From assembly GCF_052173515.1 (NCBI RefSeq), contig NZ_JBQMYL010000011.1, forward strand, positions 3,277 through 67,276: a DNA stretch of 64,000 nt, in the 5' to 3' direction. The notes beneath the pieces were generated by a model. The model saw only the letters and a program-made list of their open reading frames with translations, was not told the origin of the DNA and searched no databases. Of this stretch, positions 32,236 to 52,237 are shown in pieces. Position 1 is the first letter of the stretch; each line of letters opens with the position of its first letter. The position numbers were made by a program, and so were the translations under genes. This stretch comes from Porphyromonas endodontalis (GTDB lineage: Bacteria > Bacteroidota > Bacteroidia > Bacteroidales > Porphyromonadaceae).

Positions 32236-33006
32236 TTATAGATTGAAGTAGCTATCGACGGGCGAAGTGGCCGAAGCACTGTGAGCCACTGCCGGCAACC
32301 CTGCTTCGTAAGCTCGCCTACCTGCCACTACGGCTTCGCGGAAGGCTTGTGCCATGGCAACGGGGTCTCCTGCTGCCGCAATAGCGGTATTGACAAGTAC
32401 CGCATCGGCTCCCATCTCCATGGCTTCTGCTGCGTGCGAAGGAGCTCCGATACCGGCATCCACTACCACCGGCACTCTGCTTTGCTCTATGATAATGCGT
32501 AGGAAGTCTCTCGTAAGAAGCCCTTTATTTGTACCGATAGGAGCCCCGAGAGGCATCACGGCGGCAGCCCCTGCGTCCTCCAGACGTTTGCACAAAATGG
32601 GGTCGGCTTGTATATAGGGCATTACAAAGAATCCCTCTTTGGCGAGTACCTCGGTGGCTTTGAGCGTCTCAAAAGGATCGGGGAGAAGATATTTTGGGTC
32701 GGGGTGGATCTCGACTTTTATGATGCGTGCGCCGAGAGCTTCGTAGGCTAGGCGTGCTGCAAATATAGCCTCATCGGCATTGTGCGTACCCGAGGTGTTG
32801 GGCATTAGATGCACTCCGGGGCGGCGAATTGCCTCTATCAGATCGTCGTGGTCGCTGTTGGTTTCCACACGCTTGAGGGCTACTGTTACAAGTTCGCTCC
32901 CCGAGGCTTCGATGGCGCGTTGCATGAGTTCGTTGGAGGCAAACTTGCCCGTTCCGAGAAATAAGCGAGACTGAAAGGTTTGCCCTGCAATGGTTAATTG
33001 TTCCAT
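32236..33006 (-). CDS. thiG: Thiazole synthase
   Basis: [38 protein letters not shown] 33006. Confidence 0.97.
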
Positions 33007-33022
33007 AGGTAAAGTACGAGAT

Positions 33023-34999
33023 TTAGAAATATTGATCGCTGAGTTGTACAAGTCGGGCACTCTCGGCTTGAGGATCTGTAGCGTGGTTGATAATGCCGGA
33101 GAGGGCAATGCCTTGTACCCCTACACCTGCTAAGGTGGAGAAGTCGCCAGCAGTAATCCCTCCAATGGCAATGAGGGGGATAGGTTGAGGTAGGGTGTGA
33201 TTAAAACGGACGAGGGCGGCCATGCCCTTTTCGCCAAGCAGCGGACTGAGGAGCTTCTTCGTTTGAGTGGTACGGAAGGGGCCTATCCCCACATAGTCCA
33301 CCCCTTGCAGAGAGCGTAGGGCTAGGTCTTCGATCCGATTGCAGGTGGCTCCTACTATCTTGTCCGTTCCCAAGATGCGGCGGACGTCGGCAGGGGGGAG
33401 GTCGTCGAGCCCCACGTGTACGCCATCGGCATCCGAGCGAAGAGCCGCCTCCACATCATCGTCTATAATCAAGATCGCCGAGGGATAAGGCTGCATCTCT
33501 TGGCGGATGGCTTGTGCGGCTATAACTCGTTCTTCGGTCGATGCCGTCTTCATACGAAGTTGTATCCAGCGTACGCCCCCTTGCAACGCGGCTCTGCATT
33601 GGTTGAGTATCTCCTCCAAATCGGGGCTATCGGTAATGAATTGCAACTTTCCTCTTCGCAGCTTCTCGGCCTTGAGTCTCTCTCCGGAGGGAGGGAGAAT
33701 TGCGAGACGCGTCTTGCCGGAGCGGCGCAAAGCATCTACGTACCATTGCCCTTTGCGGCAAGCTTCGGAGAGTGTTTCCCCTTGAGCCAGTGCCGTGGCG
33801 ATAGCCGCAGATAGGGCGCAACCGGTGCCGTGCTTATCGTGGGGAGTGCGTGGTACTCGGCTCGATTGGGCTTCGCGGTGGGGTTGATAGAGTACATCGC
33901 AAGAGCTATCTCTGTTGGCGGAATGCCCTCCCTTGAGTAGGATAGCTACATGGAACGTATCTGCCACTTGCTGCAACTTGTGCTCCCAATCGGCACCAAA
34001 GAGCCGTTCTGCCTCGGGTAGGTTGGGGGTAATTAAGGAGCAGCAAGAGAAGATTTTGTGGAGAAGATTGGGCGTCCAATCGGCGTGTAGGGGATCTCTC
34101 CCATAGCTGGGTTGCAAGATGGGGTCCCATACAATCTGCCGAACTCCTGCCTCTTGTAGCAGGGCGCCTATAGTGTACACATTTTGGAGCGAAGCCACAA
34201 GACCAATCTTGGCCGCATGGGGTTTGTGACGCTTGAGTAATTGCCGGAGTGCAGGGATAAAGTCCACACTTTGGCACGATACGAACTCAAATTCATCTTG
34301 AGTGGTAAGGCAGGTCGTAACCGATAGAGGGTAAGCCCCAAGGCGTTCTATGGTGCGAACATCGGCCGTAAGCCCTGCCCCCGAAGAGGGGTCGTGCCCG
34401 GCCAGAGTTAGTACCTCGGGGCGAGCGAATCGCAAAAAAGACTCTTCCATGGCATCCACTTGCTCGGCGAGGTAGCCCAGCGTAGCCCCTCCTGCAAATC
34501 CATAGGAGCGCACGAGGGGGTAGTTGTCCGGAGTGATTCCGCCCAAGGCAAGCACGGGGAAGGGGAGCTTAGGAAGTCTAGATCGGCATTCGTCCAAATC
34601 AATATTCGCGTGGTATCCGCCCTTGGAGATGCTATCGAAGACGGGGCTGAGCAAAGCCAAGTCGGGGCAGAAGGGGAGAGACTCTAGTTCGTCCAAACTA
34701 TGCGCCGACGCTGTAATGCGTTGGATTTGAGCTACCTCTTGCCAATGCTTCCACTCTTTTTGTCGGGAGCCCCTGAGATGAATCCCCCCAAGACCTGCCA
34801 CGGGTACCAAGTGAAAGTAGTCCGCCAAGATGACCTTACTGCGGTGGCGAGGCTCAATAGCTCGGATACAATCTTCGTACTGCTCCTGGGACGCATCGGG
34901 CAAGCGCAAGAGCAGCATAGACAAGCCTGCCCCTAGTAGTGCATTATAGTATTGCACTACCTTGGGAGTGGCATTGGGTGGGGTTATAGCCAGTAGCAT
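33023..34999 (-). CDS. Three-domain fusion: ThiE/TenI-like, HMP(-P) kinase ThiD, thiamine-phosphate synthase ThiE
   Basis: N-domain [22 protein letters not shown]; middle [26 protein letters not shown]-domain IQLRMK, GVHVG..D, GPFR.T.TK, AIGGI. Confidence 0.9.
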
Positions 35000-35012
35000 G
35001 GGCTGTGAAGGG

Positions 35013-36827
<1,815 letters not shown>

Positions 36828-37636: not shown

Positions 37637-38347
37637 TTACTTGCTGTGAAGAGGAAATTTTATATCCACTTGCCTAGATATAGTATTGCCATTGGATAGC
37701 GTCATGGAGACAGTGAAAGTTATCGTCTTGTCCATCCATGCTGTAGGGGGTTCTTTTATGTACAATATCCACCAAGGATGAGACGCTAAAAGCCGATTCA
37801 GATCCATTGGATCTTTCATTTTTAGCATGGCTAAGAATTTAAAACTATCGTCATATCCACGTTTGATATAGCTCAGATTATCTAAGAATGATAGAGCTGC
37901 AACATCATTAAGGGAAGCCCCTTTCTCATGATCTTTGTCGTAGGCTGTATTACACGTTACCTTTATCTCTTTTGGGACACTTATGATACCTACGTGCCTA
38001 CTTATGATACGCCCGCCTTTTTGTGTGTGCTTAAAGTAGCATGTATCGCCTATAGAGGATAGAAAGTGTACAATTTTAGAGTTTTGCCTATCATAACTGT
38101 TGTATTCTACTCTACTGCCTTGCATTTCTATCTTGCAGATTTCTACAAACTTTTCCTCATGTAGCAAAGGGTGTATTGCTCTTCCTTTTGTATCAGAGTC
38201 TATAGCCTCTAGACGAAAATCATTGGGTTCTACAAACGCTGTGAGAAAGTGGGGGTAGTACTTGGGTTTCTCGAAACAGCCCGAAATCCCTATGAGAAAG
38301 AGGAGCAATACACTCCCCAATGCCAATGCGCTCTTGTATTTTTTCAT
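37637..38347 (-). CDS. Hypothetical lipoprotein, paralog of 38361-39083
   Basis: Lipobox ISGC; shares YPHFL.AFV.P, SIGDT, LND, KDP.DL.RLLAS blocks with its neighbour. Confidence 0.8.
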   Translation of the reverse strand: MKKYKSALALGSVLLLFLIGISGCFEKPKYYPHFLTAFVEPNDFRLEAIDSDTKGRAIHPLLHEEKFVEICKIEMQGSRVEYNSYDRQNSKIVHFLSSIGDTCYFKHTQKGGRIISRHVGIISVPKEIKVTCNTAYDKDHEKGASLNDVAALSFLDNLSYIKRGYDDSFKFLAMLKMKDPMDLNRLLASHPWWILYIKEPPTAWMDKTITFTVSMTLSNGNTISRQVDIKFPLHSK

Positions 38348-38360
38348 AACCAAAGTTTTT

Positions 38361-39083
38361 TTATTGCATAGGGGGTTGAGGCTGAATAGGGAACTTCACA
38401 TCAATGCTGTTGGTAACAGATTTGTCTCCCTTATCCGTGGGGAGTACCATGGTGACTGTAAAGCGGACAGTCTCGCCATTCCAGGCCTCGGGTACTTTGT
38501 CTATTATGAGCCACCACTTAGGGTCTGAGGCTAATAGGCGTTTGAGGTCTACCGGGTCTTTAAGACGGATATGTCCCCCATTCTCTCCGGATTTATAGCC
38601 ATTCTGTATATACTGTAGATAATCAAAGAAACGGAGGTATAGTACATCATTTAAGGGAGTACCGGCCTTTAGAGTCTCGCTGTAGTTGTGATCGCAAGTA
38701 ACCACCATATTCTTTGGTGTAGCCATTAGACCTGTAGCTCTTCTCGTTATCTGCTCATAAGGCCTTCTATCCGGGTAATGAGTGTCGCCTATAGAGACGA
38801 GAAAATTCATAATGGAAGAGTCTCTTCCATCATAGCTAAAGTGCTTAGGATATCGATTCTCTACATCAAATAGTTCTATGGTGCAGATATAAGTATTCTC
38901 GGTAGAGTCCCTTGGTATGTATTTCTCTAGTGTAAAAGCACTGGGCTTTACAAAGGCAGAGAGAAAGTGAGGATAGTGTAGTGTTGGGCCAAAAAGCCAT
39001 TCGCTTACACAGCTACTCAAGCTCATACTGATCCCCATAAAAAGAGTGGCGATAAGTACTCCTCTAGATGTAATCTTCTTCAT
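38361..39083 (-). CDS. Hypothetical lipoprotein, paralog of 37637-38347
   Basis: Lipobox LSSC; same shared blocks; TATCTTTG at 39199-39206. Confidence 0.8.
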   Translation of the reverse strand: MKKITSRGVLIATLFMGISMSLSSCVSEWLFGPTLHYPHFLSAFVKPSAFTLEKYIPRDSTENTYICTIELFDVENRYPKHFSYDGRDSSIMNFLVSIGDTHYPDRRPYEQITRRATGLMATPKNMVVTCDHNYSETLKAGTPLNDVLYLRFFDYLQYIQNGYKSGENGGHIRLKDPVDLKRLLASDPKWWLIIDKVPEAWNGETVRFTVTMVLPTDKGDKSVTNSIDVKFPIQPQPPMQ

Positions 39084-39529: not shown

Positions 39530-40690
39530 ATGATCATTGGTGTTCCCAGAGAGATTATGCACGATGAGGCTCGCGTAGCTGCCAGCCCCGAAGCCGTTGC
39601 CAAGTATGTAGCAGATGGTTTTACCGTGCTTTTTGAAAAAGCTGCCGGCGAAGGTGCTTTCTATCACGACGAAGAGTACAAAAAGGCAGGAGCCGAGCTT
39701 ATTGATGGTCCTAAGGAGATTTACGACCGTAGCGACATCATTATTAAGGTAAAAGAGCCTCTTTTCAATGAGCAAATGGGGGTTCATGAGATTGATATGA
39801 TGCACAAGGGGCAGTATATCATCACCTTTATTCACCCGGCCTCTCCGGTAAACCATGACATGGTACGCAAGATGGCTGCTCAGGGCGTTATTGGCTTAAC
39901 TCTTGATGGCGTGCCTCGTATCTCTCGTGCACAAAATCTCGATGCTCTTACCTCAATGAGTACCTGTGCCGGTTATAAGGGTATCCTTATGGCAGCCAAC
40001 GACCTCGCCAGCTTCATGCCTCAGATGTTCACCGCAGTGGGTAAGATCGACCCCATGAAAGTGATGGTAATTGGGGTAGGGGTAGCCGGTCTTCAGGCTC
40101 TTGCTACGGCTAAGCGTTTGGGAGCTGTTCTTTATGCTGCCGATATCCGTCCTGCTGCTGCAGAGCAAGCTACCAGCCTTGGTGCTAAGCTTGTGGATAC
40201 GGGTGTTGCCCCAGAGCTTGCTATTGCCGAGGGAGGGTACGCTAAGCACCTCCCCGAGGATGTCCTAGTTAAGGAGCGTGAGCTCTTGAAGTCTACCATC
40301 CAAGATATGGATATCGTTTTCTGTAGTGCTCTCGTTCCCGGTAAGATTGCTCCGGTAATCATTACAGAGGAGATGGTGAAGGGGATGAAGCCCGGCTCCG
40401 TTATCGTAGACATCTCTATCGACCAGGGTGGTAACTGCGAAATTACTCCTGCCGGTCGTCGCGAAGTAAAGCATGGTGTAGTACTTGAGGGTATTAAGAA
40501 CATCCCCGGTATGCTCCCCAAGAGCTCTACATGGATGTTCTCTCAGAACATGTACAACCTAGTGAAGTACCTCGTGAAGGATGGCAAGATGAACCTCGAT
40601 ATGAGCGACGAAATCTGCCAAAAGATCCTTGTTACTCGCGATGGTGAAATTGTACATGAGGGTACACGCGAAGCAATGGGGATGAAGTAA
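39530..40690 (+). CDS. pntA: Transhydrogenase subunit alpha part 1 (soluble dI, NAD(H)-binding)
   Basis: GVPRE...EARVA, PRISRAQNLDAL, GVGVAGLQA, DIRP, GGYAK mobile loop, DQGGNCE. Confidence 0.95.
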   Translation: MIIGVPREIMHDEARVAASPEAVAKYVADGFTVLFEKAAGEGAFYHDEEYKKAGAELIDGPKEIYDRSDIIIKVKEPLFNEQMGVHEIDMMHKGQYIITFIHPASPVNHDMVRKMAAQGVIGLTLDGVPRISRAQNLDALTSMSTCAGYKGILMAANDLASFMPQMFTAVGKIDPMKVMVIGVGVAGLQALATAKRLGAVLYAADIRPAAAEQATSLGAKLVDTGVAPELAIAEGGYAKHLPEDVLVKERELLKSTIQDMDIVFCSALVPGKIAPVIITEEMVKGMKPGSVIVDISIDQGGNCEITPAGRREVKHGVVLEGIKNIPGMLPKSSTWMFSQNMYNLVKYLVKDGKMNLDMSDEICQKILVTRDGEIVHEGTREAMGMK

Positions 40691-40833
40691 TTGAGATCTC
40701 CCCGAAAGAAATAATTGGGCATTGCCCCTACAGAGGGGAAGGTTTATTACAAGGATAAGCCTTCCCCTTATTTGCATTCGCTACTCCGATTGGTAACTAT
40801 TCTCTATCTACACATTAGACTCAATCACATATT

Positions 40834-41130
40834 ATGAATCCTCTTATTTTGGTACTGATCTTCGTGGCGGCCACGATTATCGGGTACTTTCTTATCAAAA
40901 ATGTCCCGAGCCTTTTGCATACGCCCCTCATGTCGGGGATGAATGCCCTCTCGGGAGTTACGATTATTGGGGCACTGGCTGCTGCAGGTCTTGCTCTGCT
41001 CGTGCATGATCCGCTATGGGGGCAGGTGCTAGGGGCTTTGGCCATTATCCTTGCAACGATTAACGTAGTAGGTGGTTTTGGTGTGACCCACCGCATGCTA
41101 CGTATGTTCCAACAGAAAAAGAAGAAATAA
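40834..41130 (+). CDS. pntA: Transhydrogenase subunit alpha part 2 (membrane)
   Basis: VPSLLHTPLMSGMNALSG, INVVGGFGVTHRML. Confidence 0.95.
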   Translation: MNPLILVLIFVAATIIGYFLIKNVPSLLHTPLMSGMNALSGVTIIGALAAAGLALLVHDPLWGQVLGALAIILATINVVGGFGVTHRMLRMFQQKKKK

Positions 41131-41133
41131 ACT

Positions 41134-44100
41134 ATGGACCAGACGCTTATATACGTAATTAGTGCCCTTCTTTCACTGCTTGTGATGGTGGGCATTGCCC
41201 TTATGAGTAAGGTGCGTTATGCCTCTTTGGGTAATTCTCTTAGTGCTCTGGCCATCCTTGCCGGTATTGTTTTTACTCTACTTACAAAGGAAAATAATGG
41301 TACTCCTATCATTACGGCTTGGACTCTCTATCCCTCTCTCGCTATTGGGGCTTTGATTGGTGGGCTATTTGCCACGCGCGTAAAAATGATACAGATGCCC
41401 CAGTTGGTTGCTTTGCTCAACGGACTAGGGGGAGGAGCATCTGCGCTTGTGGGGATTCTCTCCGTAGCAGGCATTGGCGAACGCCTGGCAGCCACTGCAT
41501 TTAGCAATTTTACCGGCTATCTTGCTATTGGCATAGGGCTTATTACCCTCGTTGGTAGCCTTGTTGCTGCCGGAAAATTGCATCGCCTTCTTCCACAAAA
41601 GCCGCAGGTTTGGGCTTTCCATTCGATGGCGACTGTACTCTCGCTTGTGGTAATGGCGATACTGATTCTTATTGGTACTTTTTCTCAATACGAGGGAATG
41701 CCTGTATTCTGGTTAATTGCCGGAGTGGCTATCTTCTCCTCTCTATTTGGACTTTATTTCTCCATTCGCGTAGGAGGGGCCGACATGCCTATCACCATCT
41801 CGCTACTCAACTCCTTGAGTGGGGTAGCCGGGGCTATTGCCGGTATGGCTATTGGGGACGTCCTGCTCGTTGCGGTGGGTGGTATTGTAGGGGCATCAGG
41901 TTTGTTGCTGACACAGATTATGTGCCGAGCTATGAATCGTAGCCTTCTCTCTATCCTCCTGGGTACAAAGAAAAAGGTGGCTACGCCTGCACCTTCATCT
42001 GTGGCAACGGCTTCATCGGCTGCTGCTCCCAAAGTAGAAGTAAAGAAAACCCCCAGTGAGGTACTCTCCACAGCCAAGCGAGTAATCATCGTACCGGGCT
42101 ATGGTATGGCACTGGCTCAGGCTCAACACGAGGTAAAGCAACTTGCCGATGCTCTTCGCAAAGGGGGTGCAGAGGTTCGCTTTGCCATCCATCCCGTGGC
42201 AGGTCGTATGCCGGGTCATATGAACGTACTCCTTGCCGAGGCCAATGTTCCCTACGACGATCTCTTTGAGATGGAGGCTATCAACGACGACTTTGCCAAG
42301 GTAGATGCCGCTATCGTAATCGGGGCTAACGACGTACTGAACCCTGCTGCTCGCAATGCAGAGGGTACGCCCATCTACGGCATGCCTGTACTGAATGTAG
42401 ACCAAGCTCCCTACGTGGTTATCTGCAACTACGACCTCAAACCGGGTTATGCCGGCGTGGAGAATCCGCTTTACACGAGAGAAGAGGGCGTGGCACTCCT
42501 TACAGGGGATGCTAAAGAAACCGTCTCGGCTCTTCTTACTGATTACCAAAAAGCGTTGGCAGGTAATGGCGCAGTAGCTCCTAAAGCCGAAGCTAACGAT
42601 AAGCCTACGGCAGGGGCTATCCTCTCCACAGCCAAGCGCGTAATTATCGTACCCGGCTATGGTATGGCACTGGCTCAGGCTCAACACGAGGTAAAGCAAC
42701 TTGCCGATGCTCTTCGCAAAGGGGGTGCAGAGGTTCGCTTTGCCATCCATCCCGTGGCAGGTCGTATGCCGGGTCATATGAACGTACTCCTTGCCGAGGC
42801 CAATGTTCCCTACGACGATCTCTTTGAGATGGAGGCTATCAACGACGACTTTGCCAAGGTAGATGCCGCTATCGTAATCGGGGCTAACGACGTACTGAAC
42901 CCTGCTGCTCGCAATGCAGAGGGTACGCCCATCTACGGCATGCCTGTACTGAATGTAGACCAAGCTCCCTACGTGGTTATCTGCAACTACGACCTCAAAC
43001 CGGGTTATGCCGGCGTGGAGAATCCGCTTTACACGAGAGAAGAGGGCGTGGCACTCCTTACGGGAGATGCTAAAGAAACCGTCTCAGCTCTTCTTACTGA
43101 TTACCAAAAAGCATTGGCAGGTAATGGCGCAGCAGCTCCTAAAACCGAAGCTAATGATAAGCCCACGGTAGGGGCTATCCTCTCCACAGCCAAGCGAGTA
43201 ATCATCGTACCCGGCTATGGTATGGCACTGGCTCAAGCCCAGCATGAGGTAAAGCAGCTTGCTGATAAACTTCGTTCGAAGGGGGCAGAGGTCCGTTTTG
43301 CCATCCATCCTGTAGCAGGCCGTATGCCGGGGCATATGAACGTACTCCTTGCCGAGGCGAATGTACCCTATGAAGATCTCTTTGAGATGGAGGCTATCAA
43401 CGACGACTTTGCCAAAGTGGATGCCGCTATCGTAATCGGAGCTAACGACGTATTGAATCCCGCAGCTCGCAATGCTGAGGGTACACCTATCTACGGCATG
43501 CCAGTGCTGAATGTAGACCAAGCTCCCTACGTAGTTATCTGCAATTACGACCTCAAACCGGGTTATGCCGGCGTAGAGAATCCGCTTTACACGAGAGAAG
43601 AGGGCGTAGCTCTCCTTACGGGGGATGCCAAAGAGAGTCTTGCTCGTCTCATGGAAGAGATGGATCAGACCATTGCTCCCGAGGCGGAGGGGGCAAAGGA
43701 ATCTTCCCCCGGTACCTCATCCTATACCCAGTGGATGAAGGAGGCACGTAAGGTAATTATTGTACCCGGTTATGGTATGGCACTCGCTCAAGCCCAGCAC
43801 GAAGTGAAGCAACTCGCCGATAAACTTGCAAAGCAGGGGGCAGAGGTTCGCTTTGCCATCCATCCTGTGGCAGGTCGTATGCCGGGTCATATGAACGTGC
43901 TTCTTGCCGAGGCAAATGTACCCTACGACGACCTTTTTGAGATGGAGGCCATCAACAATGATTTCGCTTCTACCGATTTGGTGATTGTGATTGGGGCTAA
44001 CGATGTTTTGAATCCTGCTGCTCGTAACGCCGAAGGCACGCCCATTTACGGCATGCCGGTGCTGAATGTGGATCAAGCGCCTCATGTGATTATCTGCAAC

Positions 44101-44217
44101 TACGACCTCAAACCGGGGTATGCCGGGGTGGAAAATCCCCTCTATACACGTGAGGAGGGAGTAGCTCTGCTTACGGGAGACGCCAAAGAGTCTCTCCAAA
44201 AGCTTCTTGCTCTCTAG
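41134..44217 (+). CDS. pntB: Transhydrogenase subunit beta with four tandem dIII domains
   Basis: MPQLVALLN, GGADMP, LNSLSG, AMNRS in the membrane part; four copies of VPGYGMA..AQ, HPVAGRMPGHMNVLLAEA, GAND, GYAGV.NPL, GDAK. Confidence 0.95.
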   Translation: MDQTLIYVISALLSLLVMVGIALMSKVRYASLGNSLSALAILAGIVFTLLTKENNGTPIITAWTLYPSLAIGALIGGLFATRVKMIQMPQLVALLNGLGGGASALVGILSVAGIGERLAATAFSNFTGYLAIGIGLITLVGSLVAAGKLHRLLPQKPQVWAFHSMATVLSLVVMAILILIGTFSQYEGMPVFWLIAGVAIFSSLFGLYFSIRVGGADMPITISLLNSLSGVAGAIAGMAIGDVLLVAVGGIVGASGLLLTQIMCRAMNRSLLSILLGTKKKVATPAPSSVATASSAAAPKVEVKKTPSEVLSTAKRVIIVPGYGMALAQAQHEVKQLADALRKGGAEVRFAIHPVAGRMPGHMNVLLAEANVPYDDLFEMEAINDDFAKVDAAIVIGANDVLNPAARNAEGTPIYGMPVLNVDQAPYVVICNYDLKPGYAGVENPLYTREEGVALLTGDAKETVSALLTDYQKALAGNGAVAPKAEANDKPTAGAILSTAKRVIIVPGYGMALAQAQHEVKQLADALRKGGAEVRFAIHPVAGRMPGHMNVLLAEANVPYDDLFEMEAINDDFAKVDAAIVIGANDVLNPAARNAEGTPIYGMPVLNVDQAPYVVICNYDLKPGYAGVENPLYTREEGVALLTGDAKETVSALLTDYQKALAGNGAAAPKTEANDKPTVGAILSTAKRVIIVPGYGMALAQAQHEVKQLADKLRSKGAEVRFAIHPVAGRMPGHMNVLLAEANVPYEDLFEMEAINDDFAKVDAAIVIGANDVLNPAARNAEGTPIYGMPVLNVDQAPYVVICNYDLKPGYAGVENPLYTREEGVALLTGDAKESLARLMEEMDQTIAPEAEGAKESSPGTSSYTQWMKEARKVIIVPGYGMALAQAQHEVKQLADKLAKQGAEVRFAIHPVAGRMPGHMNVLLAEANVPYDDLFEMEAINNDFASTDLVIVIGANDVLNPAARNAEGTPIYGMPVLNVDQAPHVIICNYDLKPGYAGVENPLYTREEGVALLTGDAKESLQKLLAL
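42064..44200 (+). repeat. Intragenic tandem repeat, four units of 555-558 bp
   Basis: CTCTCCACAGCCAAGCG at 42064, 42622, 43180; GYGM codons at 42097, 42655, 43213, 43768. Confidence 0.97.
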
Positions 44218-44242: not shown

Positions 44243-44279
44243 ATCCCCACTAGATTCTTCTAGTGGGGATTTTTCTTTT
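44243..44279 (+). terminator. Intrinsic terminator of the pnt operon
   Basis: ATCCCCACTAGA-TTCT-TCTAGTGGGGAT followed by TTTTCTTTT. Confidence 0.85.
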
Positions 44280-44495: not shown

Positions 44496-45020
44496 TTACC
44501 GATTGCGAAGGGGACCCTTGCGAGAGGATTGCTCCGGAGATTGTACCGCTTCCTCTATTTGTTTACGAGTGAATTTGCCGATGAACGAAATGGCTACGTA
44601 CTCCTCCGGCGAGTCGACCAGGAGGTAGAGATCGTGTATTTCGTTGCCCTTTTTCCTACCCACAAGGTGCATGGTTCTTTGGTCCTCTTTTACAAAAAAG
44701 AGTTGCTCGTAGGTGGGTGAGTCCATCTTGATCATAGGGGTGAAGATGGAGCGCATGAGCTGGATGTTCTTACGGTCTGCTGCCGAGAAGATGTATACGG
44801 AGTTCACCGCTTGTATCAATCCGTGTAGGGAGGCTGAGTGTCCGTTACCTCCCGAAAAACGTAGGGAAGACTCCGAAAGCATAGAGGAGGATAGGTAAAC
44901 TACCGTGATGCCGTCTGTAGACATTAGACGCTCCAGTGTAGTGTTGTTTTGCGCCTGCACAGGGCGGAAGGTAAGAGGTAGCAGTGCAAATAGGGCGGTG
45001 ACGATGGGTAGGAGTTTCAT
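44496..45020 (-). CDS. DUF4252-like exported protein
   Basis: Signal peptide; DGITVVYLSSSML...LYLLV...YVAISFIGKF pattern; ECF cassette context. Confidence 0.65.
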   Translation of the reverse strand: MKLLPIVTALFALLPLTFRPVQAQNNTTLERLMSTDGITVVYLSSSMLSESSLRFSGGNGHSASLHGLIQAVNSVYIFSAADRKNIQLMRSIFTPMIKMDSPTYEQLFFVKEDQRTMHLVGRKKGNEIHDLYLLVDSPEEYVAISFIGKFTRKQIEEAVQSPEQSSRKGPLRNR

Positions 45021-45046
45021 ATCGTAGAAGGGTATATCTAGAGAGA

Positions 45047-45622
45047 CTAATAGGCGATATCAAAGGGGGTGGCAAAGGGAGTGGAGGAGCTCATTGGCTC
45101 TAATTGTTGGTAAGAGGCATCTAAGAAGTTAGATACTTCTTCTAGGGTAGAGTGGGCTTTGGTATAATGTTCGTTGCCGGCTGAGAGGCAATCGTCGAGT
45201 AACCCAAAGGCGCGTGCCATCTCACGATCCACTTCCTCTTGATCTATGGGGCGAGTGTTACGCCAAGAGCCGTTGGGCTCGGTGGTGGGTTGCCAGATAG
45301 AGGTGCCGATAGCGATAAGGAGAGCCAAGGCAGCAGCGGCAGCCCAAATATGTTTTGGGATAATGCGCCAACGCTTCTGTACCTTCACTTCTTGAGTTGC
45401 TTGCTCCTTCTGCCCCTGCAAAGAGAGCTGGGCGGCCGCCATCATCATATGCTCCATGGCGATTAAGTCCGGGCGATAGGGGCTGTCTTCGGGCTCTTCG
45501 AGCAGAGAGATATAGAGGGACACTTCCTCTTCGGGAGAGGTTGAGCCATCGTAGTACTTCCGGAGTAGCTCCTCAAGGTGGCGTGGAGTAGTCATTCTTT
45601 TTATCGCTCTAGGGGTGATCAA
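45047..45622 (-). CDS. Putative single-pass anti-sigma factor
   Basis: LLRKYYDGSTSPEEE N-domain, WAAAAALALLI TM helix; directly downstream of the ECF sigma gene (alternative ATG 45595). Confidence 0.65.
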   Translation of the reverse strand: MITPRAIKRMTTPRHLEELLRKYYDGSTSPEEEVSLYISLLEEPEDSPYRPDLIAMEHMMMAAAQLSLQGQKEQATQEVKVQKRWRIIPKHIWAAAAALALLIAIGTSIWQPTTEPNGSWRNTRPIDQEEVDREMARAFGLLDDCLSAGNEHYTKAHSTLEEVSNFLDASYQQLEPMSSSTPFATPFDIAY

Positions 45623-46128
45623 TCTTTTTCAAATAGGGCTCGCACTTCTTTGCGAAGGCGAGATAGGGTGCTTCGTACTGTTGTCTCTTGTAGGCCGAGT
45701 CGCTCTGCTGTCTCTTGGTTGGATAGCATCTCGTAGTGCCTTAGTGAGAATATACTTTTTTGGGGTTCGCGTAGTTGCTCTACCCAATGTGCAAGGCGTT
45801 CTTCTCCGCTCTTTGCCACAAGTGTGCTATGGGGGTCGGCACTATTGTCTATCTGTAGAGCTAGAGCTGTCTCTGCCTCTTTGCCACTCGTGCGCAGCCT
45901 CTCGCCGGCACTCTTGAGGTGGTCTAGGCATCGGTTGCGTGCAATACGTACGGCATAGGCTTGTGGCGATTGCACGTTGTCTAGCTCATCTCTCTGCTCC
46001 CATAGGCGGAGGTAAACATCTTGTGTGATATCGTTGGCTACCTCTTGGTCTGTAAGTAGGGCCACGCACACCATAAATATCACCTGCCTGAGGGGGAGGT
46101 AAGTTTGGTTGAATGTAGCCTTATTCAT
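45619..46128 (-). CDS. ECF (sigma-70 group 4) RNA polymerase sigma factor
   Basis: DITQDVYLRLW, RIARNRCLD, region 4 LSNQETAERLG...TVRSTLSR. Confidence 0.92.
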   Translation of the reverse strand: MNKATFNQTYLPLRQVIFMVCVALLTDQEVANDITQDVYLRLWEQRDELDNVQSPQAYAVRIARNRCLDHLKSAGERLRTSGKEAETALALQIDNSADPHSTLVAKSGEERLAHWVEQLREPQKSIFSLRHYEMLSNQETAERLGLQETTVRSTLSRLRKEVRALFEKD

Positions 46129-46163
46129 ACAGATAGAGAGTAGAAGGGATGGTGCCTATCGGG

Positions 46164-46730
46164 CTATTTATTCTCCGTTTGAGCAGGGGCTAAGTGAATA
46201 GAACTATTAAGTCTAAAGTGACCTAGTAGGCGGATCACTTGTTGCCGCTTCTCGTTTGTGTACAGGATATACATACCCGTAAAGGTAGGAGCCTGGGGAT
46301 TGTGTATGCCAAAGATACGTACTTTGTCACTACCCTCGCTGGCAAGAGTGATCAATTCACAATCCTCAAACTGGAGGGGAGAGAAAAGAGATGCGACAAC
46401 CTTCTGTTCTTCTTGGGTGAGTGCTAGCGAACGAGGTATAGAGAGTATGAAAAGACTTTGCTCTTCCGCTTCTTTGAGAGTAAGAGGTAAAGTACCGCTA
46501 TCACTCTTGAAACTTGATGTTGCCAAAGCATCTAGGAAGTCCCCATCTATCACAGGGGTAGTGCCACTAAACAACTGAGCCAAGGCTTCAGCTCCAAAAT
46601 AGCTACACTCCACTCCCTCTATGCGAGCACATTGCTCGAATAGATTCGCAATAGAAGTAGTGGTAGACTGAGCCATTGCACTTAGGCAACCGGCAAACCC
46701 CAAGAGGGAAACCAGAAGGTGTCGAATCAT
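46164..46730 (-). CDS. Exported hypothetical protein, possibly a divergent DUF4252
   Basis: Signal peptide ...SAMAQ; EGVECSYF and EGSDKVRIF resemble the 44496 protein layout. Confidence 0.55.
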   Translation of the reverse strand: MIRHLLVSLLGFAGCLSAMAQSTTTSIANLFEQCARIEGVECSYFGAEALAQLFSGTTPVIDGDFLDALATSSFKSDSGTLPLTLKEAEEQSLFILSIPRSLALTQEEQKVVASLFSPLQFEDCELITLASEGSDKVRIFGIHNPQAPTFTGMYILYTNEKRQQVIRLLGHFRLNSSIHLAPAQTENK

Positions 46731-48157: not shown

Positions 48158-48487
48158 ATGCGTATTATTCGTAATTCATATATCCCTTTTCGAGGATTTA
48201 CCGCCATGAATCTTTTTGGGATACTCTTTGTACGTCGGGAGGCTGCGGAACTTACGCCGGAAACTCTCAATCACGAAAAAATCCATTCTGCCCAGATGCG
48301 AGAGATGCTTTACATCCCTTTCTATATCTGGTATTTACTGGAGTGGATCCTAAGACTCTTCCTCCCGCGCAATGCCTATCGCAATATCTCTTTTGAGCGA
48401 GAGGCATATAAATACCAAAACGACCTCTCCTACCTAAGTAGAAGAGGTCGCTTTACGTGGATTCGTTTCTTGTTTAGAGCCGGTTAG
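48158..48487 (+). CDS. Small hypothetical protein with HExxH motif
   Basis: HEKIH...FEREAY with a hydrophobic segment; TACCTTTG at 48121-48128. Confidence 0.75.
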   Translation: MRIIRNSYIPFRGFTAMNLFGILFVRREAAELTPETLNHEKIHSAQMREMLYIPFYIWYLLEWILRLFLPRNAYRNISFEREAYKYQNDLSYLSRRGRFTWIRFLFRAG

Positions 48488-50010
48488 CGGTCTTCGAAGC
48501 TTTTGAATACCTCCGGGAGGTTGTCAATAATGTCGGAGGCAATGAGGGCTGTTTCGCTAGACCTAGCCGCAAAGAGGTCGCCCGCTTCCCCATGGAAATA
48601 GTTGGCGAGTACTGCTGCCGTAGAGGGGTCGTACCCTTGAGCCAGTAGGGCTAGGATAATCCCTGTGAGCACATCGCCACTCCCTGCTGTTGCCATACCC
48701 GGGTTGCCCTTACTATTGAAGTAGATACTCCCAGCAGGGGTACACGTGGTGGAATAGGCTCCTTTTAAGATGATATTTAGTCCGTGTGTACGAGCAAAGT
48801 AGGTAGCCTGCTCAAGGCGTTCTTCGTCCGTATCCCAATGGGTCGTGAGTCGGTCGAATTCCCCTGCATGAGGGGTGAGAATGCTACCTTTGGGCACTAG
48901 ATCGAGTAACGACTTGTGGCGTGCAATTAAGTTGAGAGCGTCGGCATCTATCACAAAAGTCTTGTCGCTTGCATTGGAGAATAGGTCAATAAGCATTTCT
49001 GCCGTCTCCTCCTCTTGTCCCAGCCCGGGGCCTATGGCAATCACATCGTACTGTCGTAGGTTGTCTACCATTGTCGTGATGTTGCTATTCACGTCAAGGT
49101 CGAGCATGGCCTCGGGTACAGCTGCCTGCAATGCCGTCTCTCCACGGTAAGGAATATGGCAGGTGAGCTTGCCGATACCACTCCTGAGAGCTGCTTTGCT
49201 GGCAAGTATCGCTGCGCCCATTTTGCCTTGAGAGCCTGCAATGAGTAGTCCATGACCAAATTGCCCCTTGTGTGCGAAGCGATCGCGACGGCGGAATATC
49301 GTAGCTAGCGTATTCTCCTCAATCAGATAGTGGCGCGTAGGTAGGTTGTCTTTGCCACTACTGCTCAGCCCAAGTTGTATGACACCGGGCTGCCCAATGA
49401 AGGGGGCATTTTCTGCAAAGAAGAAACAACGCTTAGGGTACTCCAGGGTATAGGTATAGGTAGCTTTGATGATGGCATCACGGTCTACCATAAGATTCTC
49501 GCTGGGATACAAGCCCGAGGGAAGGTCTATGGATACAACCTCACACTGCGATTGATTGATGTATTGTATGATGCTTCTATAGGCTCCCTCCGGGGTGCGA
49601 TTGAGTCCTGTACCGAAGAGTCCATCAATAACAATATGCTTGGGGGTTAATACGGGGAACTCAATTTTGCCACTAATCACCTCTTGTAGTTTGATATTGG
49701 GGTGATTGGCAACGCGATTTCTCATAGTCTCACATGCGGAGGAAAGGGACTGCTTCCCCTGGATCAAAAAGACCGAGACTGCATAGTTGTTACTCGCAAG
49801 CTCAAGAGAGAGAGCTAGGGCATCGGCTCCATTATCACCATTCCCGGCAATGCAAACAATGGGGCGTCCACAATTCTTATAAACATGCAAAAACTCTTCG
49901 GCGAGCTTGGTTGCTGCATTTTCTATAAGAGTGAGGAGGGGTAACCCCTCGTGCTGTATGGTGTGCGTATAGAGGGCGTTAATTTCTTCGCCGGAGAATA
50001 TCTTTATCAT
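48484..50010 (-). CDS. nnr: Bifunctional NAD(P)H-hydrate epimerase/dehydratase
   Basis: GNGDNGAD, DGLFGTG, IDLPSG, HKG.FG, DADALN, TPH.GEF, ATAGSGDVL. Confidence 0.93.
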   Translation of the reverse strand: MIKIFSGEEINALYTHTIQHEGLPLLTLIENAATKLAEEFLHVYKNCGRPIVCIAGNGDNGADALALSLELASNNYAVSVFLIQGKQSLSSACETMRNRVANHPNIKLQEVISGKIEFPVLTPKHIVIDGLFGTGLNRTPEGAYRSIIQYINQSQCEVVSIDLPSGLYPSENLMVDRDAIIKATYTYTLEYPKRCFFFAENAPFIGQPGVIQLGLSSSGKDNLPTRHYLIEENTLATIFRRRDRFAHKGQFGHGLLIAGSQGKMGAAILASKAALRSGIGKLTCHIPYRGETALQAAVPEAMLDLDVNSNITTMVDNLRQYDVIAIGPGLGQEEETAEMLIDLFSNASDKTFVIDADALNLIARHKSLLDLVPKGSILTPHAGEFDRLTTHWDTDEERLEQATYFARTHGLNIILKGAYSTTCTPAGSIYFNSKGNPGMATAGSGDVLTGIILALLAQGYDPSTAAVLANYFHGEAGDLFAARSSETALIASDIIDNLPEVFKSFEDR

Positions 50011-50049
50011 ATAACTGTACCAAAGGCTAGAGAGGAGAGGGCTTAGGCT

Positions 50050-50841
50050 TTAGTCCATACTCCCCCGCACAATACCTCGCTCCGAAGAGCGGATAAAATT
50101 GAGTATCAAGTCACGCTCAGGAGAAGATGGGATCTCTTGTTCGATGGTGGCAATGGCTTCTGTATTGTTAAGTCCGCGTTGGTAGAGGGTACGATATACG
50201 TCGTTAATGAGAAAAATTTGCTCATTGGTGAATCCTCTACGCCGCAGTCCTACGATATTGATGCCGCAGTACACGATCGGGTCGCGACCAATTAGGGTGT
50301 AGGGAGGAATGTCTTTGGTAACACGACTCCCCCCCTGTATCATTGCATGTTGCGAGATGCGACCAAACTGATGCACAAGTACACTTCCGCTTAGTATAGC
50401 ATAGTCGTCAATCTCTACTTCTCCTGCTATTTGGGAGGCATTCCCTATAATGATATGATTTTGTAGTACACAGTCGTGGGCAATGTGGCTGTATGCCATG
50501 ATGAGACAATGGTCTCCTATTTTGGTATAACCACGGGAGGCTGTCCCCCGATTGACTGTAGCATACTCGCGGATGGTCGTGTAGTCCCCTATATAGGCAA
50601 GGGTCTCCTCTCCTTGGAATTTTAGGTCTTGGGGAACCCCTGCTATCACAGCTCCCGGATGGATCTCGCAGTGTGCCCCTATACGAGCACCACTGCGTAT
50701 GATGGCATGGCTGTGGATATGAGTTCCCTCTCCTATCTCTACATTTTCTTCTATTATGGCAAAGGCGTCTATTTGTACCCTGTCGGCTAGCTTAGCCTCG
50801 GGGGCAACAAGGGCTGTGGGGTGTATGGTGGTTGTGTTCAT
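50050..50841 (-). CDS. lpxA: UDP-N-acetylglucosamine acyltransferase
   Basis: IHPTA, PQDLKF, HIAHDC, VHQF, GLRRRGF. Confidence 0.96.
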   Translation of the reverse strand: MNTTTIHPTALVAPEAKLADRVQIDAFAIIEENVEIGEGTHIHSHAIIRSGARIGAHCEIHPGAVIAGVPQDLKFQGEETLAYIGDYTTIREYATVNRGTASRGYTKIGDHCLIMAYSHIAHDCVLQNHIIIGNASQIAGEVEIDDYAILSGSVLVHQFGRISQHAMIQGGSRVTKDIPPYTLIGRDPIVYCGINIVGLRRRGFTNEQIFLINDVYRTLYQRGLNNTEAIATIEQEIPSSPERDLILNFIRSSERGIVRGSMD

Positions 50842-50857
50842 TTTATAGGGAAAAAAG

Positions 50858-52237
50858 TTAGTTGTTCTTTACAATCTGTGCCATAAACTCAGCCTCGCAT
50901 ACGAGTTTTTCTCCTACATAAGCAAGACCGCGCATATTGGCAATCCCTCGTATTATCTCACTCATCATGCGCAGACGGAATACTAGGGTATCGCCGGGAA
51001 CAACCTTCTGGCGGAATTTTACATTGTTGATTTTTAGGAAGTAAGTAGAGAAGTCGCTTCCCTCTTCCATAGCACTAAGAACGAGCAATCCTCCCGTCTG
51101 TGCCATTGCTTCTACAATGAGTACTCCGGGCATTACGGGTTCGTTGGGGAAATGTCCAACGAAGAAAGGTTCATTACCCGATACGCTCTTTACTCCTACG
51201 ATGTTATCTTGCCCGATCTCGATAATTTTATCTACAAGGAGGAAGGGATAGCGGTGAGGAAGCAATTCTTTGATGCGATTTATATCAAGTATGGGCTCCT
51301 TATCGGGATCATATACCGGGGCTTGGGCTTCGATCTGTTTGATCTCTTTGCGCAGGAGGCGTGCCATCTTATTGTTGATGCCATGCCCGGGGCTGTAGGC
51401 CAAAACGTGCCCACGGATGAATTTCCCTACGAGAGCAAGGTCGCCTATGATGTCGAGGAGTTTGTGCCGAGCCGGCTCTCCGGATAGGGCCTCATTGGGG
51501 TTGAGGAATCCTATTGTAGTGGGTATTTCGGTCCCCTGAGGTAGCACTTTTCCTAGTTCTTCTCTCTCCTCTTTGCTTAGCTCTCTGTCGTTGATAACGA
51601 GAGCATTCGATAGCTGTCCACCTTGTATCAGACCCTTCTGGATGAGGGGAAGAAGCTCGCGAACAAAGACAAAACTACGAGCCGGAGCAATCTCCGAAGC
51701 ATAGTCTGTATGGCTGTCGTATGAGGCGAATTGATTGCCCAAAAGAGGCGAAGGGTATGAGATATGTGTATCGATACCGAATTCGTCATCGGGCAGGAGG
51801 ATAATACGAGCACCCGTATCAGGGTCACTTACTTCCATCCTTTTTTTGATGATGTAGTACTCGCGTTCGGCCTTCTGTTCGGCAAGACCTACTCGCTGTA
51901 TTGCCTCTACAATAGGCTGAGAATTACCCGTGAGGATTGGGCACTCAGGGGCATTAACTTCTATGATACAATTGTCTACTCCGAGGGCATACAGTGCGCT
52001 GAGGGTGTGTTCGATAGTGCTTACTGAGAGCTCTCCCTTCTTGAGTACAGTACTGCGATCGGTAGAGCAAACTAGCTCTGCCAGTGCCGGAATAAGAGGA
52101 GCATTCTCTACATCTGTACGCCTAATTTGGTATCCTGTGTTGATAGGAGCAGGCTGTAGGGTCATTGTAATGTGGAGACCTGTGTGGAGCCCTATCCCTT
52201 CGAAGTGGAGGGCTTCATTTAGTGTTTGCTGTTGCAT
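50858..52237 (-). CDS. lpxC: Bifunctional LpxC/FabZ
   Basis: [43 protein letters not shown]. Confidence 0.96.

What the first reader, a model, noticed from the sequence alone, without database searches (positions are those of the whole stretch)
41134..44217. Transhydrogenase beta subunit with four tethered dIII domains: a multi-swinging-arm architecture
Seen: PntB is 1027 aa. An intact membrane domain (GGADMP, LNS.SG, AMNRS) is followed by a long flexible hinge (KKKVATPAPSSVATASSAAAPK) and four complete dIII domains joined by Ala/Pro/Lys/Glu-rich linkers. Established: characterised PntB proteins (E. coli, Thermus) have a single dIII, which flips between docking on dI for hydride transfer and docking on the proton channel. 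Inference: four dIIIs on linkers resembling those between lipoyl domains in pyruvate dehydrogenase E2 could act as multiple swinging nucleotide carriers. They might engage several soluble dI subunits (dI is a separate gene here), buffer cofactor, or partly uncouple hydride transfer from ion translocation.
Basis: partly seen in the sequence, partly recalled or inferred. Interest (0 to 1): 0.85.

Follow-up and report, generated by a model that had tools for sequence, protein, structure and literature searches.

The report
Anaerobe transhydrogenase resembling ion-coupled alanine dehydrogenase
The four repeated nucleotide-carrying heads are real but optional; the bigger surprise is that this whole group of anaerobe 'transhydrogenases' has lost the NADP-recognition motif and kept an alanine dehydrogenase active site, so it may use the membrane ion gradient to drive alanine breakdown instead of making NADPH.

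Summary
Confirmed: PntB (41134-44217, 1027 aa) has an intact membrane domain and four dIII copies. The same form recurs in many independent assemblies. Four is not special, though: this clade has 1-5 copies, mostly one, and the species itself has 2, 3 or 4.

The separate dI gene keeps both the transhydrogenase hydride-transfer loop and the alanine dehydrogenase catalytic set. K75, H102 and D298 are each present in 82/82 N-type operons and 13/13 alanine dehydrogenases, but in 0, 1 and 3 of 67 K-R-type operons. In five sulfate-reducer loci the operon adjoins a Tpa-like aminotransferase; neighbouring xsc or sarD genes in three of them mark taurine clusters, where alanine dehydrogenase normally sits. 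The channel residues are kept.

Best reading (about 50%, inferred, no biochemistry): an ion-gradient-coupled alanine:NAD+ oxidoreductase on a transhydrogenase chassis. The extra dIIIs would be a dispensable queue of NAD carriers. Ten searches of the open-access library found no description; key subscription papers were not available.

The parts
39530..40690 (+). pntA1 (dI, 386 aa): NAD(H)-binding subunit with the transhydrogenase R130/Q135/D138 loop and D205-x-R207, plus the alanine dehydrogenase catalytic set R15, K75 (KVKEP), H102, D298 (DQGG) and N324
39752..39754 (+). codon of K75 (AlaDH Lys75 equivalent, pyruvate binding)
   Evidence: aligned to solved AlaDH 8hyh, 1pjb, 2eez; 82/82 N-type, 0/67 K-R-type
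39833..39835 (+). codon of H102 (AlaDH His96 equivalent)
   Evidence: 82/82 versus 1/67
40421..40423 (+). codon of D298 (AlaDH Asp270 equivalent)
   Evidence: 82/82 versus 3/67; aligns with E in R. rubrum dI
40733..40769 (+). 16-pair hairpin between pntA1 and pntA2, a possible partial terminator or stabiliser that would give excess dI (inferred)
   Evidence: z -3.39, 1 of 200 shuffles as stable
40834..41130 (+). pntA2 (98 aa, PNTB_4TM) with the channel histidine H29 in H-T-P-L-M-S
41134..41967 (+). PntB membrane domain dII (residues 1-278): N96, S142, D217, N226, S229 and R269 kept
41968..42060 (+). Ala/Pro/Lys-rich dII-dIII hinge, of ordinary length
42061..42618 (+). dIII copy 1 (type A) plus linker; N432-Y433-D434 at 42427-42435 in place of K-R-S
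42619..43176 (+). dIII copy 2 (type A, recent duplicate of copy 1) plus linker; N-Y-D at 42985-42993
43177..43731 (+). dIII copy 3 (type B) plus linker; N-Y-D at 43543-43551
43732..44217 (+). dIII copy 4 (type C, terminal) and stop codon; N-Y-D at 44098-44106
44243..44270 (+). intrinsic-terminator-like hairpin closing the operon

Best explanation
The three genes encode an ion-gradient-coupled alanine (or closely related amino acid):NAD+ oxidoreductase built on the transhydrogenase chassis. Step 1 (inferred): dI oxidises alanine to pyruvate and ammonium at its retained alanine dehydrogenase site, reducing its own bound NAD+. Step 2 (inferred from the kept R130/Q135/D138 loop): a face-up dIII docks on dI and takes the hydride onto NAD+, not NADP+, because N-x-D replaces the phosphate-binding K-R-S. 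Step 3 (by analogy with canonical enzymes): dIII flips onto the dII channel, where inward H+ flow drives release of NADH and binding of NAD+. Net: alanine + NAD+ + H+out gives pyruvate + NH4+ + NADH + H+in, so the gradient pays part of an uphill deamination; run backwards, alanine formation would pump ions. The extra dIII copies are a dispensable, repeatedly expanding and contracting queue of occluded NAD(H) carriers that raises local dIII concentration or reaches surplus dI dimers. Shown: architecture, motifs, their co-variation, gene neighbourhoods. Inferred: all chemistry, and slow exchange of dI-bound NAD(H) with the pool, which tight coupling needs.
For: (1) dIII: K-R-S replaced by N-Y-D in all four copies. 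In alignment A1, 62/62 N-type dIIIs have N-[FYL]-D (59 of them picked by that motif) and 44/44 controls K-R-[SG]. KRS lies in loop E, and loops D and E define NADP over NAD specificity (PMC9529548, passages). (2) dI stays NAD-type: D205 and R207 in 82/82. With NAD on both sides plain transhydrogenation would be futile, so another hydride source is needed. (3) K75, H102 and D298 are each in 82/82 N-type dI and 13/13 AlaDH, but in 0, 1 and 3 of 67 K-R-type dI; R15 81/81. These residues bind pyruvate and are needed for AlaDH activity (PMC10401832, PMC4691113, passages). Only 9 of 103 AlaDH-specific columns are shared with the N-type group, yet they include all three (rough p 5e-4). (4) Motif-blind sample: 28 of 28 N-type operons have all three residues, 48 of 48 K-R-type have at most one; 86 of 87 single-chain K-R-type enzymes have none. 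(5) Neighbours: xsc-aminotransferase-pnt in L068; pnt-aminotransferase, then xsc, in L084; pntB-aminotransferase-sarD in L105, matching ald-tpa-sarD of Bilophila, where Ald regenerates pyruvate and SarD uses NADH (PMC6386719, PMC6453916, passages). Lrp/AsnC, aminotransferase or amino-acid permease within 1 kb upstream of dI in 16 of 50 and 1 of 27 N-type loci versus 0 of 64 K-R-type. (6) No AlaDH above cut-off in 61 genomes of the genus or in 24 of 32 other N-type genomes; this genome has NfnAB-like genes as another NADPH source. (7) Channel residues kept. (8) Direction fits: inward H+ drives reduction and release at dIII (PMC5742237, section text).
Against: No biochemistry at all. N-type and K-R-type dI are sister groups with AlaDH as outgroup (support only 84/92 and 88/89), so the AlaDH residues are probably ancestral and the co-variation is one evolutionary event, not many. 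The loop next to the site is transhydrogenase-like, not AlaDH-like (21 columns shared with K-R-type only). Canonical dI binds NAD(H) loosely (Kd 50-500 uM, PMC5742237); free exchange would short-circuit coupling. 8 of 32 N-type genomes and the genome of L068 also have a stand-alone AlaDH. The neighbour test used queries drawn from N-type neighbours (circular), and the motif-blind N-type set gave only 1 of 27. No Tpa-specific model was hit; Tpa is inferred from context. The window's own neighbours are uninformative. One operon (L333) has N-R-S with the full AlaDH set.
Confidence: 0.5

Rival explanations
1. An ordinary NADH-to-NADP+ proton-coupled transhydrogenase. N-x-D binds NADP in another way, and the AlaDH residues are ancestral relics or a non-catalytic alanine/pyruvate sensing site that regulates the enzyme.
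For: All databases name it so. Fold, hydride-transfer loop and channel residues are canonical. NADP-type glutamate dehydrogenase lies downstream in L083 and L093. N-R-S occurs in L333.
Against: Both basic residues are lost and an Asp sits at the phosphate site in 62/62; the Lys two residues later is not conserved (DLSP, DLNP, DLQP variants). Three catalytic residues stay invariant across 47-80% identity. The operon takes the place of ald in taurine clusters.
Confidence: 0.2
2. dI is a working but uncoupled alanine dehydrogenase that exchanges NAD(H) freely, while dI-dIII-dII cycle NAD(H) against NAD(H) as a redox-gated proton leak ('slip'), for example for pH or ion-gradient control.
For: NAD-type motifs on both sides; loose NAD binding in canonical dI; a hairpin that may give excess soluble dI (z of -3 or lower in 7 of 16 multi-copy and 6 of 36 single-copy loci). 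NAD(H) binding to dIII causing slip is recalled from Jackson-lab work; those papers were not held.
Against: A standing leak is costly for fermenters and sulfate reducers. No N-type dI was seen apart from its membrane genes in the loci examined, though these were found through dIII.
Confidence: 0.2
3. One reading: the multi-arm array itself is the functional novelty, giving cofactor buffering or partial uncoupling in an otherwise normal enzyme.
For: Copies are under purifying selection and expansions recur: 75 of 81 copies are closest to a copy in their own protein. Multi-copy forms are nearly confined to the N-type clade (13 of 26 complete N-type versus 0 of 49 K-R-type ORFs; 15 of 18 multi-copy representatives).
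Against: Single-copy forms dominate (39 of 56) and 2, 3 and 4 copies occur within one species. A dI dimer binds only one dIII tightly (PMC5742237), so eight dIIIs per dimer cannot all be engaged.
Confidence: 0.1

Closest known systems
Three-subunit proton-translocating NAD(P)+ transhydrogenase PntAA/PntAB/PntB (Thermus thermophilus 4O9U/4J16; Rhodospirillum rubrum)
   Same: Gene layout alpha1-alpha2-beta, dIII fold (Z 25.9, rmsd 1.5 A over 158 residues), hydride-transfer loop, NAD-type dI, channel residues.
   Different: N-x-D instead of K-R-S in dIII; AlaDH catalytic K75/H102/D298 in dI; 1-5 dIII copies; variable hinge length (98-162 versus 100-107); all named carriers belong to anaerobic groups.
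NAD-dependent L-alanine dehydrogenase (AlaDH; 2VHW, 1PJB, 2EEZ, 8HYH)
   Same: R15, K75-E76, H96, D270-Q, N300 equivalents and NAD-type Asp; position beside Tpa-like aminotransferases and Lrp/AsnC regulators.
   Different: Scores 184.6 bits on TIGR00518 versus a cut-off of 391.85; branches with PntA (100/100); has the transhydrogenase loop; co-encoded with a membrane channel and dIII.
Multi-lipoyl-domain E2 of pyruvate dehydrogenase (analogy only, recalled)
   Same: Tandem carrier domains on Ala/Pro-rich linkers with variable, dispensable copy number.
   Different: No homology; the cargo is a non-covalent dinucleotide; not tested here.
Sirtuins, ETF alpha and ThDP-enzyme middle domains (DHS-like NAD/FAD fold)
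   Same: Next-best folds to dIII (Z 9-11.4); they bind dinucleotides without a 2'-phosphate (recalled); this genome's ETF alpha has I-N-K-D at the apparently matching strand end (by eye).
   Different: Profile comparison did not align these positions significantly, so the equivalence is a lead only.

Membership tests
Proton-translocating NAD(P)+ transhydrogenase (PntAB) | dI, dII and dIII domains in one operon or polypeptide | tested here: met
Proton-translocating NAD(P)+ transhydrogenase (PntAB) | NAD(H)-type dI: GxGxxG plus acidic residue and Arg after the second strand | tested here: met
   D205 and R207 in 82/82
Proton-translocating NAD(P)+ transhydrogenase (PntAB) | Hydride-transfer R-Q-D loop in dI | tested here: met
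   R130, Q135, D138 in 82/82
Proton-translocating NAD(P)+ transhydrogenase (PntAB) | K-R-S motif of dIII loop E for NADP(H) | tested here: not met
   N-Y-D in all four copies; motif role from PMC9529548 passages
Proton-translocating NAD(P)+ transhydrogenase (PntAB) | Channel residues (alpha2 His, beta His/Asn, Asn222, Thr214/Ser, Asp-Arg salt bridge) | tested here: met
   alpha2 H29; beta N96, N226, S229, D217, R269; roles of His42, Thr214 and Asp-Arg from PMC5742237; His91 from PMC9529548; Asn222 numbering recalled
Proton-translocating NAD(P)+ transhydrogenase (PntAB) | One dIII per beta chain | tested here: not met
   four here; 49 of 49 complete K-R-type ORFs have one
Proton-translocating NAD(P)+ transhydrogenase (PntAB) | NADH + NADP+ to NAD+ + NADPH coupled to H+ flow | not testable with these tools
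   needs enzyme assays
L-alanine dehydrogenase | Catalytic and substrate residues Arg15, Lys75, His96, Asp270 | tested here: met
   roles from PMC10401832 and PMC4691113 passages
L-alanine dehydrogenase | Whole-protein score above the TIGR00518 cut-off and placement in the AlaDH clade | tested here: not met
   184.6 versus 391.85 bits; branches with PntA
L-alanine dehydrogenase | NAD-dependent alanine/pyruvate turnover; hexamer | not testable with these tools
   needs assays; the hexamer is recalled

The most novel reading that the evidence does not exclude
A widespread anaerobe lineage, sister to all sampled canonical transhydrogenases, is an ion-gradient-coupled alanine dehydrogenase: a soluble amino-acid dehydrogenase whose NAD(H) is loaded and unloaded through a proton-gated flipping domain. 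It would be a new kind of reverse-electron-transport or energy-conserving enzyme, and a living model of the step by which transhydrogenase arose from alanine dehydrogenase.
Probability: 0.5. Interest if true: 0.95.

Novelty: new variant of a known kind. Interest (0 to 1): 0.85.

Why it matters
Oxidative deamination of alanine by NAD+ is uphill (about +25 kJ/mol, recalled) and is a bottleneck for amino-acid fermenters, syntrophs and taurine users. A version driven by the ion gradient (one H+ at 150-180 mV gives 14-17 kJ/mol) would be a new bioenergetic module. It would also mean that 'NAD(P) transhydrogenase' is mis-annotated in oral and gut Porphyromonas, Prevotella, Treponema, clostridia and sulfate reducers, which changes their NADPH and nitrogen budgets in metabolic models. 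It would explain why transhydrogenase dI has an alanine dehydrogenase fold. Even if the chemistry is wrong, natural NAD-type dIIIs and 1-5-copy arrays are ready tools to test the dIII flipping mechanism and the 'slip' question.

Tried and rejected
Assembly artefact: rejected. Run search returned only partial holders kept as contigs (best share 0.36) and gave no usable evidence. 'Long hinge' as a special feature of this protein: rejected. Profile alignment of dIII with this genome's ETF alpha and sirtuin to prove the N-x-D equivalence: not significant. Single-sequence fold: poor (pLDDT 51), redone with an alignment. Search for informative dI fusions among 108 longer proteins: none helped; two carry the AlaDH set (P0429 with a radical-SAM domain, P0430), not followed. 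Plasmid search: best hits 41-43% identity, named canonical alpha subunits; not used. Atlas look-up: only generic transhydrogenase names. Strict mutual exclusion with stand-alone AlaDH: rejected (8 of 32). Hairpin after dI as a marker of multi-copy forms: weak (7 of 16 versus 6 of 36). The dI-dIII complex prediction was never run because the queue was full, so docking is untested. The careful mixture-model tree did not finish (quick tree; N-type monophyly 58); a smaller LG+G4 tree did. Literature: searches gave no paper on N-x-D or multi-dIII PntB or on an AlaDH site in PntA; two BBA papers asked for by recalled DOI were not held. No supplements were read.
Full report
Observation. The ORF at 41134-44217 encodes 1027 aa: a membrane domain followed by four dIII units at 558, 558 and 555 nt spacing, each matched by Pfam PNTB and NCBIfam PRK09444. 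Over 157-aa cores, copies 1 and 2 differ by six synonymous codons; copies 1 and 4 by 62 synonymous and 18 non-synonymous codons. It is the only PntB match in the genome. It follows pntA1 (39530-40690) and pntA2 (40834-41130) and ends at a terminator-like hairpin. A model of one copy built on 106 sequences has pLDDT 93.8 and matches Thermus dIII at Z 25.9, rmsd 1.5 A.

The array is real but fluid. Of the best 120 relatives, 3 have two dIII, 103 three, 9 four and 5 five. The species, P. endodontalis by the names on 92-97% identical proteins, usually has A-B-C (841 aa); the window has A-A-B-C, as do P0004, P0006 and P0007; other four-copy and two-copy forms exist. The 1027-aa cluster has 290 members with contigs up to 1.2 Mb, and Bacteroides coprosuis has five copies on a 2.99-Mb contig. 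Across 27 multi-copy proteins, 75 of 81 copies are closest to a copy of their own protein (two same-species loci left out), so expansion or homogenisation recurs. The hinge is of ordinary length here (107 versus 100-107 aa). A read-level check of this assembly remains open.

First surprise: the NADP motif is gone. Against solved R. rubrum dIII, K-R-S aligns with N-Y-D in the window. KRS lies in loop E, and loops D and E define NADP over NAD specificity (PMC9529548, passages). Of 56 complete PntBs there, 39 have one dIII, 9 two, 7 three and 1 four. Controls: 206 of 206 other Bacteroidota genomes with a match had one dIII (27 of the 29 read were K-R-S, 2 unread); in the order, 3 of 84 had several, all N-type. 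In motif-blind samples of three other phyla, 13 of 26 complete N-type ORFs were multi-copy and 0 of 49 K-R-type. Among 150 representatives, 15 of 18 multi-copy proteins were N-type; the three K-R-type ones are two fragments and one protein with a degenerate second copy. So the array is a secondary trait of an N-x-D clade. dI keeps the NAD-type D205 and R207 (82/82). NAD on both sides would make plain transhydrogenation futile.

Second surprise: dI keeps the alanine dehydrogenase site. KVKEP and the T-x-x-H motif align with solved AlaDHs, where ovine NNT differs. Pooled over 82 N-type dI, 67 K-R-type dI and 13 AlaDHs above cut-off: K75 82, 0, 13; H102 82, 1, 13; D298 82, 3, 13; R15 81/81, 65/66, 13; the transhydrogenase R130/Q135/D138 loop 82, 67 and largely absent from AlaDH (at least one N-type genome is counted twice, L086 = L329). 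Arg15 and Lys75 bind pyruvate, His96 and Asp270 are catalytic, and alanine substitution abolishes activity (PMC10401832 and PMC4691113, passages). Only 9 of 103 AlaDH-specific columns are shared with the N-type group, but all three catalytic ones are among them (rough p 5e-4). In the motif-blind set (76 of 80 loci gave both domains; L295, L307, L318 and L338 dropped), 28 of 28 N-type operons had all three residues and 48 of 48 K-R-type had at most one. The 28 include L333, which has N-R-S, and L309, which is broken. Of 87 single-chain K-R-type enzymes, 86 had none. With AlaDH as outgroup, N-type and K-R-type dI are sisters (84/92 and 88/89, unstarred; 36 rows; the larger quick tree left N-type monophyly at 58). 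The residues are therefore probably ancestral and this is one event, but they stay invariant across 47-80% identity.

Neighbourhood. A class III aminotransferase of one subfamily adjoins the operon in L038, L068, L084, L105 and L371. L068 reads xsc-aminotransferase-pntA1-pntA2-pntB, L084 pntB-aminotransferase with xsc beyond, and L105 (Mailhella) pntB-aminotransferase-sarD-TRAP transporter (xsc and sarD above curated cut-offs). In Bilophila the cluster is ald-tpa-sarD, Ald regenerates pyruvate for Tpa, and SarD uses NADH (PMC6386719 and PMC6453916, passages). Tpa identity here is inferred from context. The genomes of L038, L084, L105 and L371 show no AlaDH above cut-off but are partly incomplete; that of L068 has one. 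An Lrp/AsnC regulator, aminotransferase or amino-acid permease lies within 1 kb upstream of dI in 16 of 50 pattern-found and 1 of 27 motif-blind N-type loci, against 0 of 64 K-R-type and 2 of 14 AlaDH loci (queries came from N-type neighbours, so this leans in favour). No AlaDH passes the cut-off in 61 genomes of the genus; 8 of 32 other N-type genomes have one. The window's genome has NfnAB-like genes, RnfC and NqrA, so it has another route to NADPH and sources of an ion gradient. The window's own flanking genes say nothing on function.

Mechanism. Channel residues are kept: alpha2 H29, beta N96, N226, S229, D217 and R269 (roles from PMC5742237, section 3 parts 1-2). In canonical enzymes inward H+ drives hydride from dI-bound NADH to the dIII nucleotide, and dIII flips between dI and the channel (same paper). 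I infer that here alanine reduces dI-bound NAD+, dIII carries the hydride away on NAD+, and proton flow releases NADH. Alanine oxidation costs about +25 kJ/mol (recalled potentials); one H+ at 150-180 mV returns 14-17 kJ/mol, in the direction these organisms need. That substrate and dIII use the same face of the dI cofactor is recalled, not checked. The weak point is coupling: canonical dI binds NAD(H) loosely, and free exchange would give an uncoupled AlaDH plus a proton leak. The substrate may be another amino or 2-oxo acid. As for the four arms, a dI dimer binds one dIII tightly and a second poorly, and isolated dIII holds its nucleotide very tightly, so extra copies can only queue or reach surplus dI; a 16-pair hairpin after the dI gene (z -3.39) could supply that surplus. 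Since single-copy forms dominate, the arms tune rate at most.

Membership and novelty. It fails the K-R-S test for NADP-specific PntAB and the score and clade tests for AlaDH, while meeting most structural features of the first and the catalytic set of the second. Ten searches (listings only unless cited above) found nothing on N-x-D, repeated dIII or an AlaDH site in PntA. The P. gingivalis operon appears only as up-regulated in biofilm under its standard name (PMC5378342, passages). I recall Jackson-lab work on NAD(H) binding to dIII and 'slip'; those papers were not held and may mention this group. No supplements were read. Five earlier notes of this scan report multi-dIII PntB in other genomes; the lines shown treat it as an NADH/NADPH enzyme and are not independent support.

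Verdict. Observation confirmed; interpretation partly supported. On what is shown, this is a new variant of a known kind. If the inferred chemistry holds (about 50%), it is a new class of energy-coupled dehydrogenase. Interest 0.85.

Noticed in passing
window 32236-36791 (-): Thiamine cluster by eye: ThiC-like 592 aa, a 658-aa ORF that looks like a ThiE-ThiD-ThiE fusion, and ThiG-like 290 aa (names recalled, not scanned).
   Followed up: no
window 37637-39083 (-): Two tandem paralogous lipoprotein-like ORFs (238 and 240 aa) with no Pfam hit at 1e-6, divergent from the pnt operon.
   Followed up: partly
window 44496-46730 (-): ECF sigma factor, putative anti-sigma and a DUF4252 protein, plus a similar-looking 188-aa ORF not scanned.
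   Followed up: partly
window 48484-52237 (-): By eye: a two-domain NAD(P)H-hydrate repair enzyme (508 aa), LpxA and an LpxC-FabZ fusion (names recalled).
   Followed up: no
P0153-P0239: Many single-dIII N-type PntBs (Prevotella-like, Paludibacteraceae) carry a conserved coiled-coil-like segment inside a 66-120 aa hinge, which could bundle dIIIs of neighbouring chains.
   Followed up: no
L333, L334: Deep-branching Bacillota operons with N-R-S or N-R-D in dIII and the full AlaDH set in dI: possible intermediates in cofactor specificity; both genomes also have a stand-alone AlaDH.
   Followed up: partly
P0254: A K-R-S-type PntB with a second, degenerate dIII; P0257 is an N-type case with a degenerate second copy.
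   Followed up: no
L055, L078, P0262: alpha2-beta fusions within the N-type clade.
   Followed up: no
L286-L290: A widespread 405-410 aa AlaDH-like family in Bacteroidia that lacks the Lys75 and His96 equivalents but keeps the Asp270 equivalent.
   Followed up: no
L307 (G807:C30): The Mobiluncus genome with an N-type operon also holds a second, divergent PntA-like frame (535 aa) lacking the AlaDH residues; no dIII in the fetched stretch.
   Followed up: partly
L230:1354-2376 (-): ETF alpha of this genome has I-N-K-D at the strand end that seems to match dIII N-Y-D, hinting that N-x-D is the ancestral non-phosphate state of this fold; not significant by profile alignment.
   Followed up: partly
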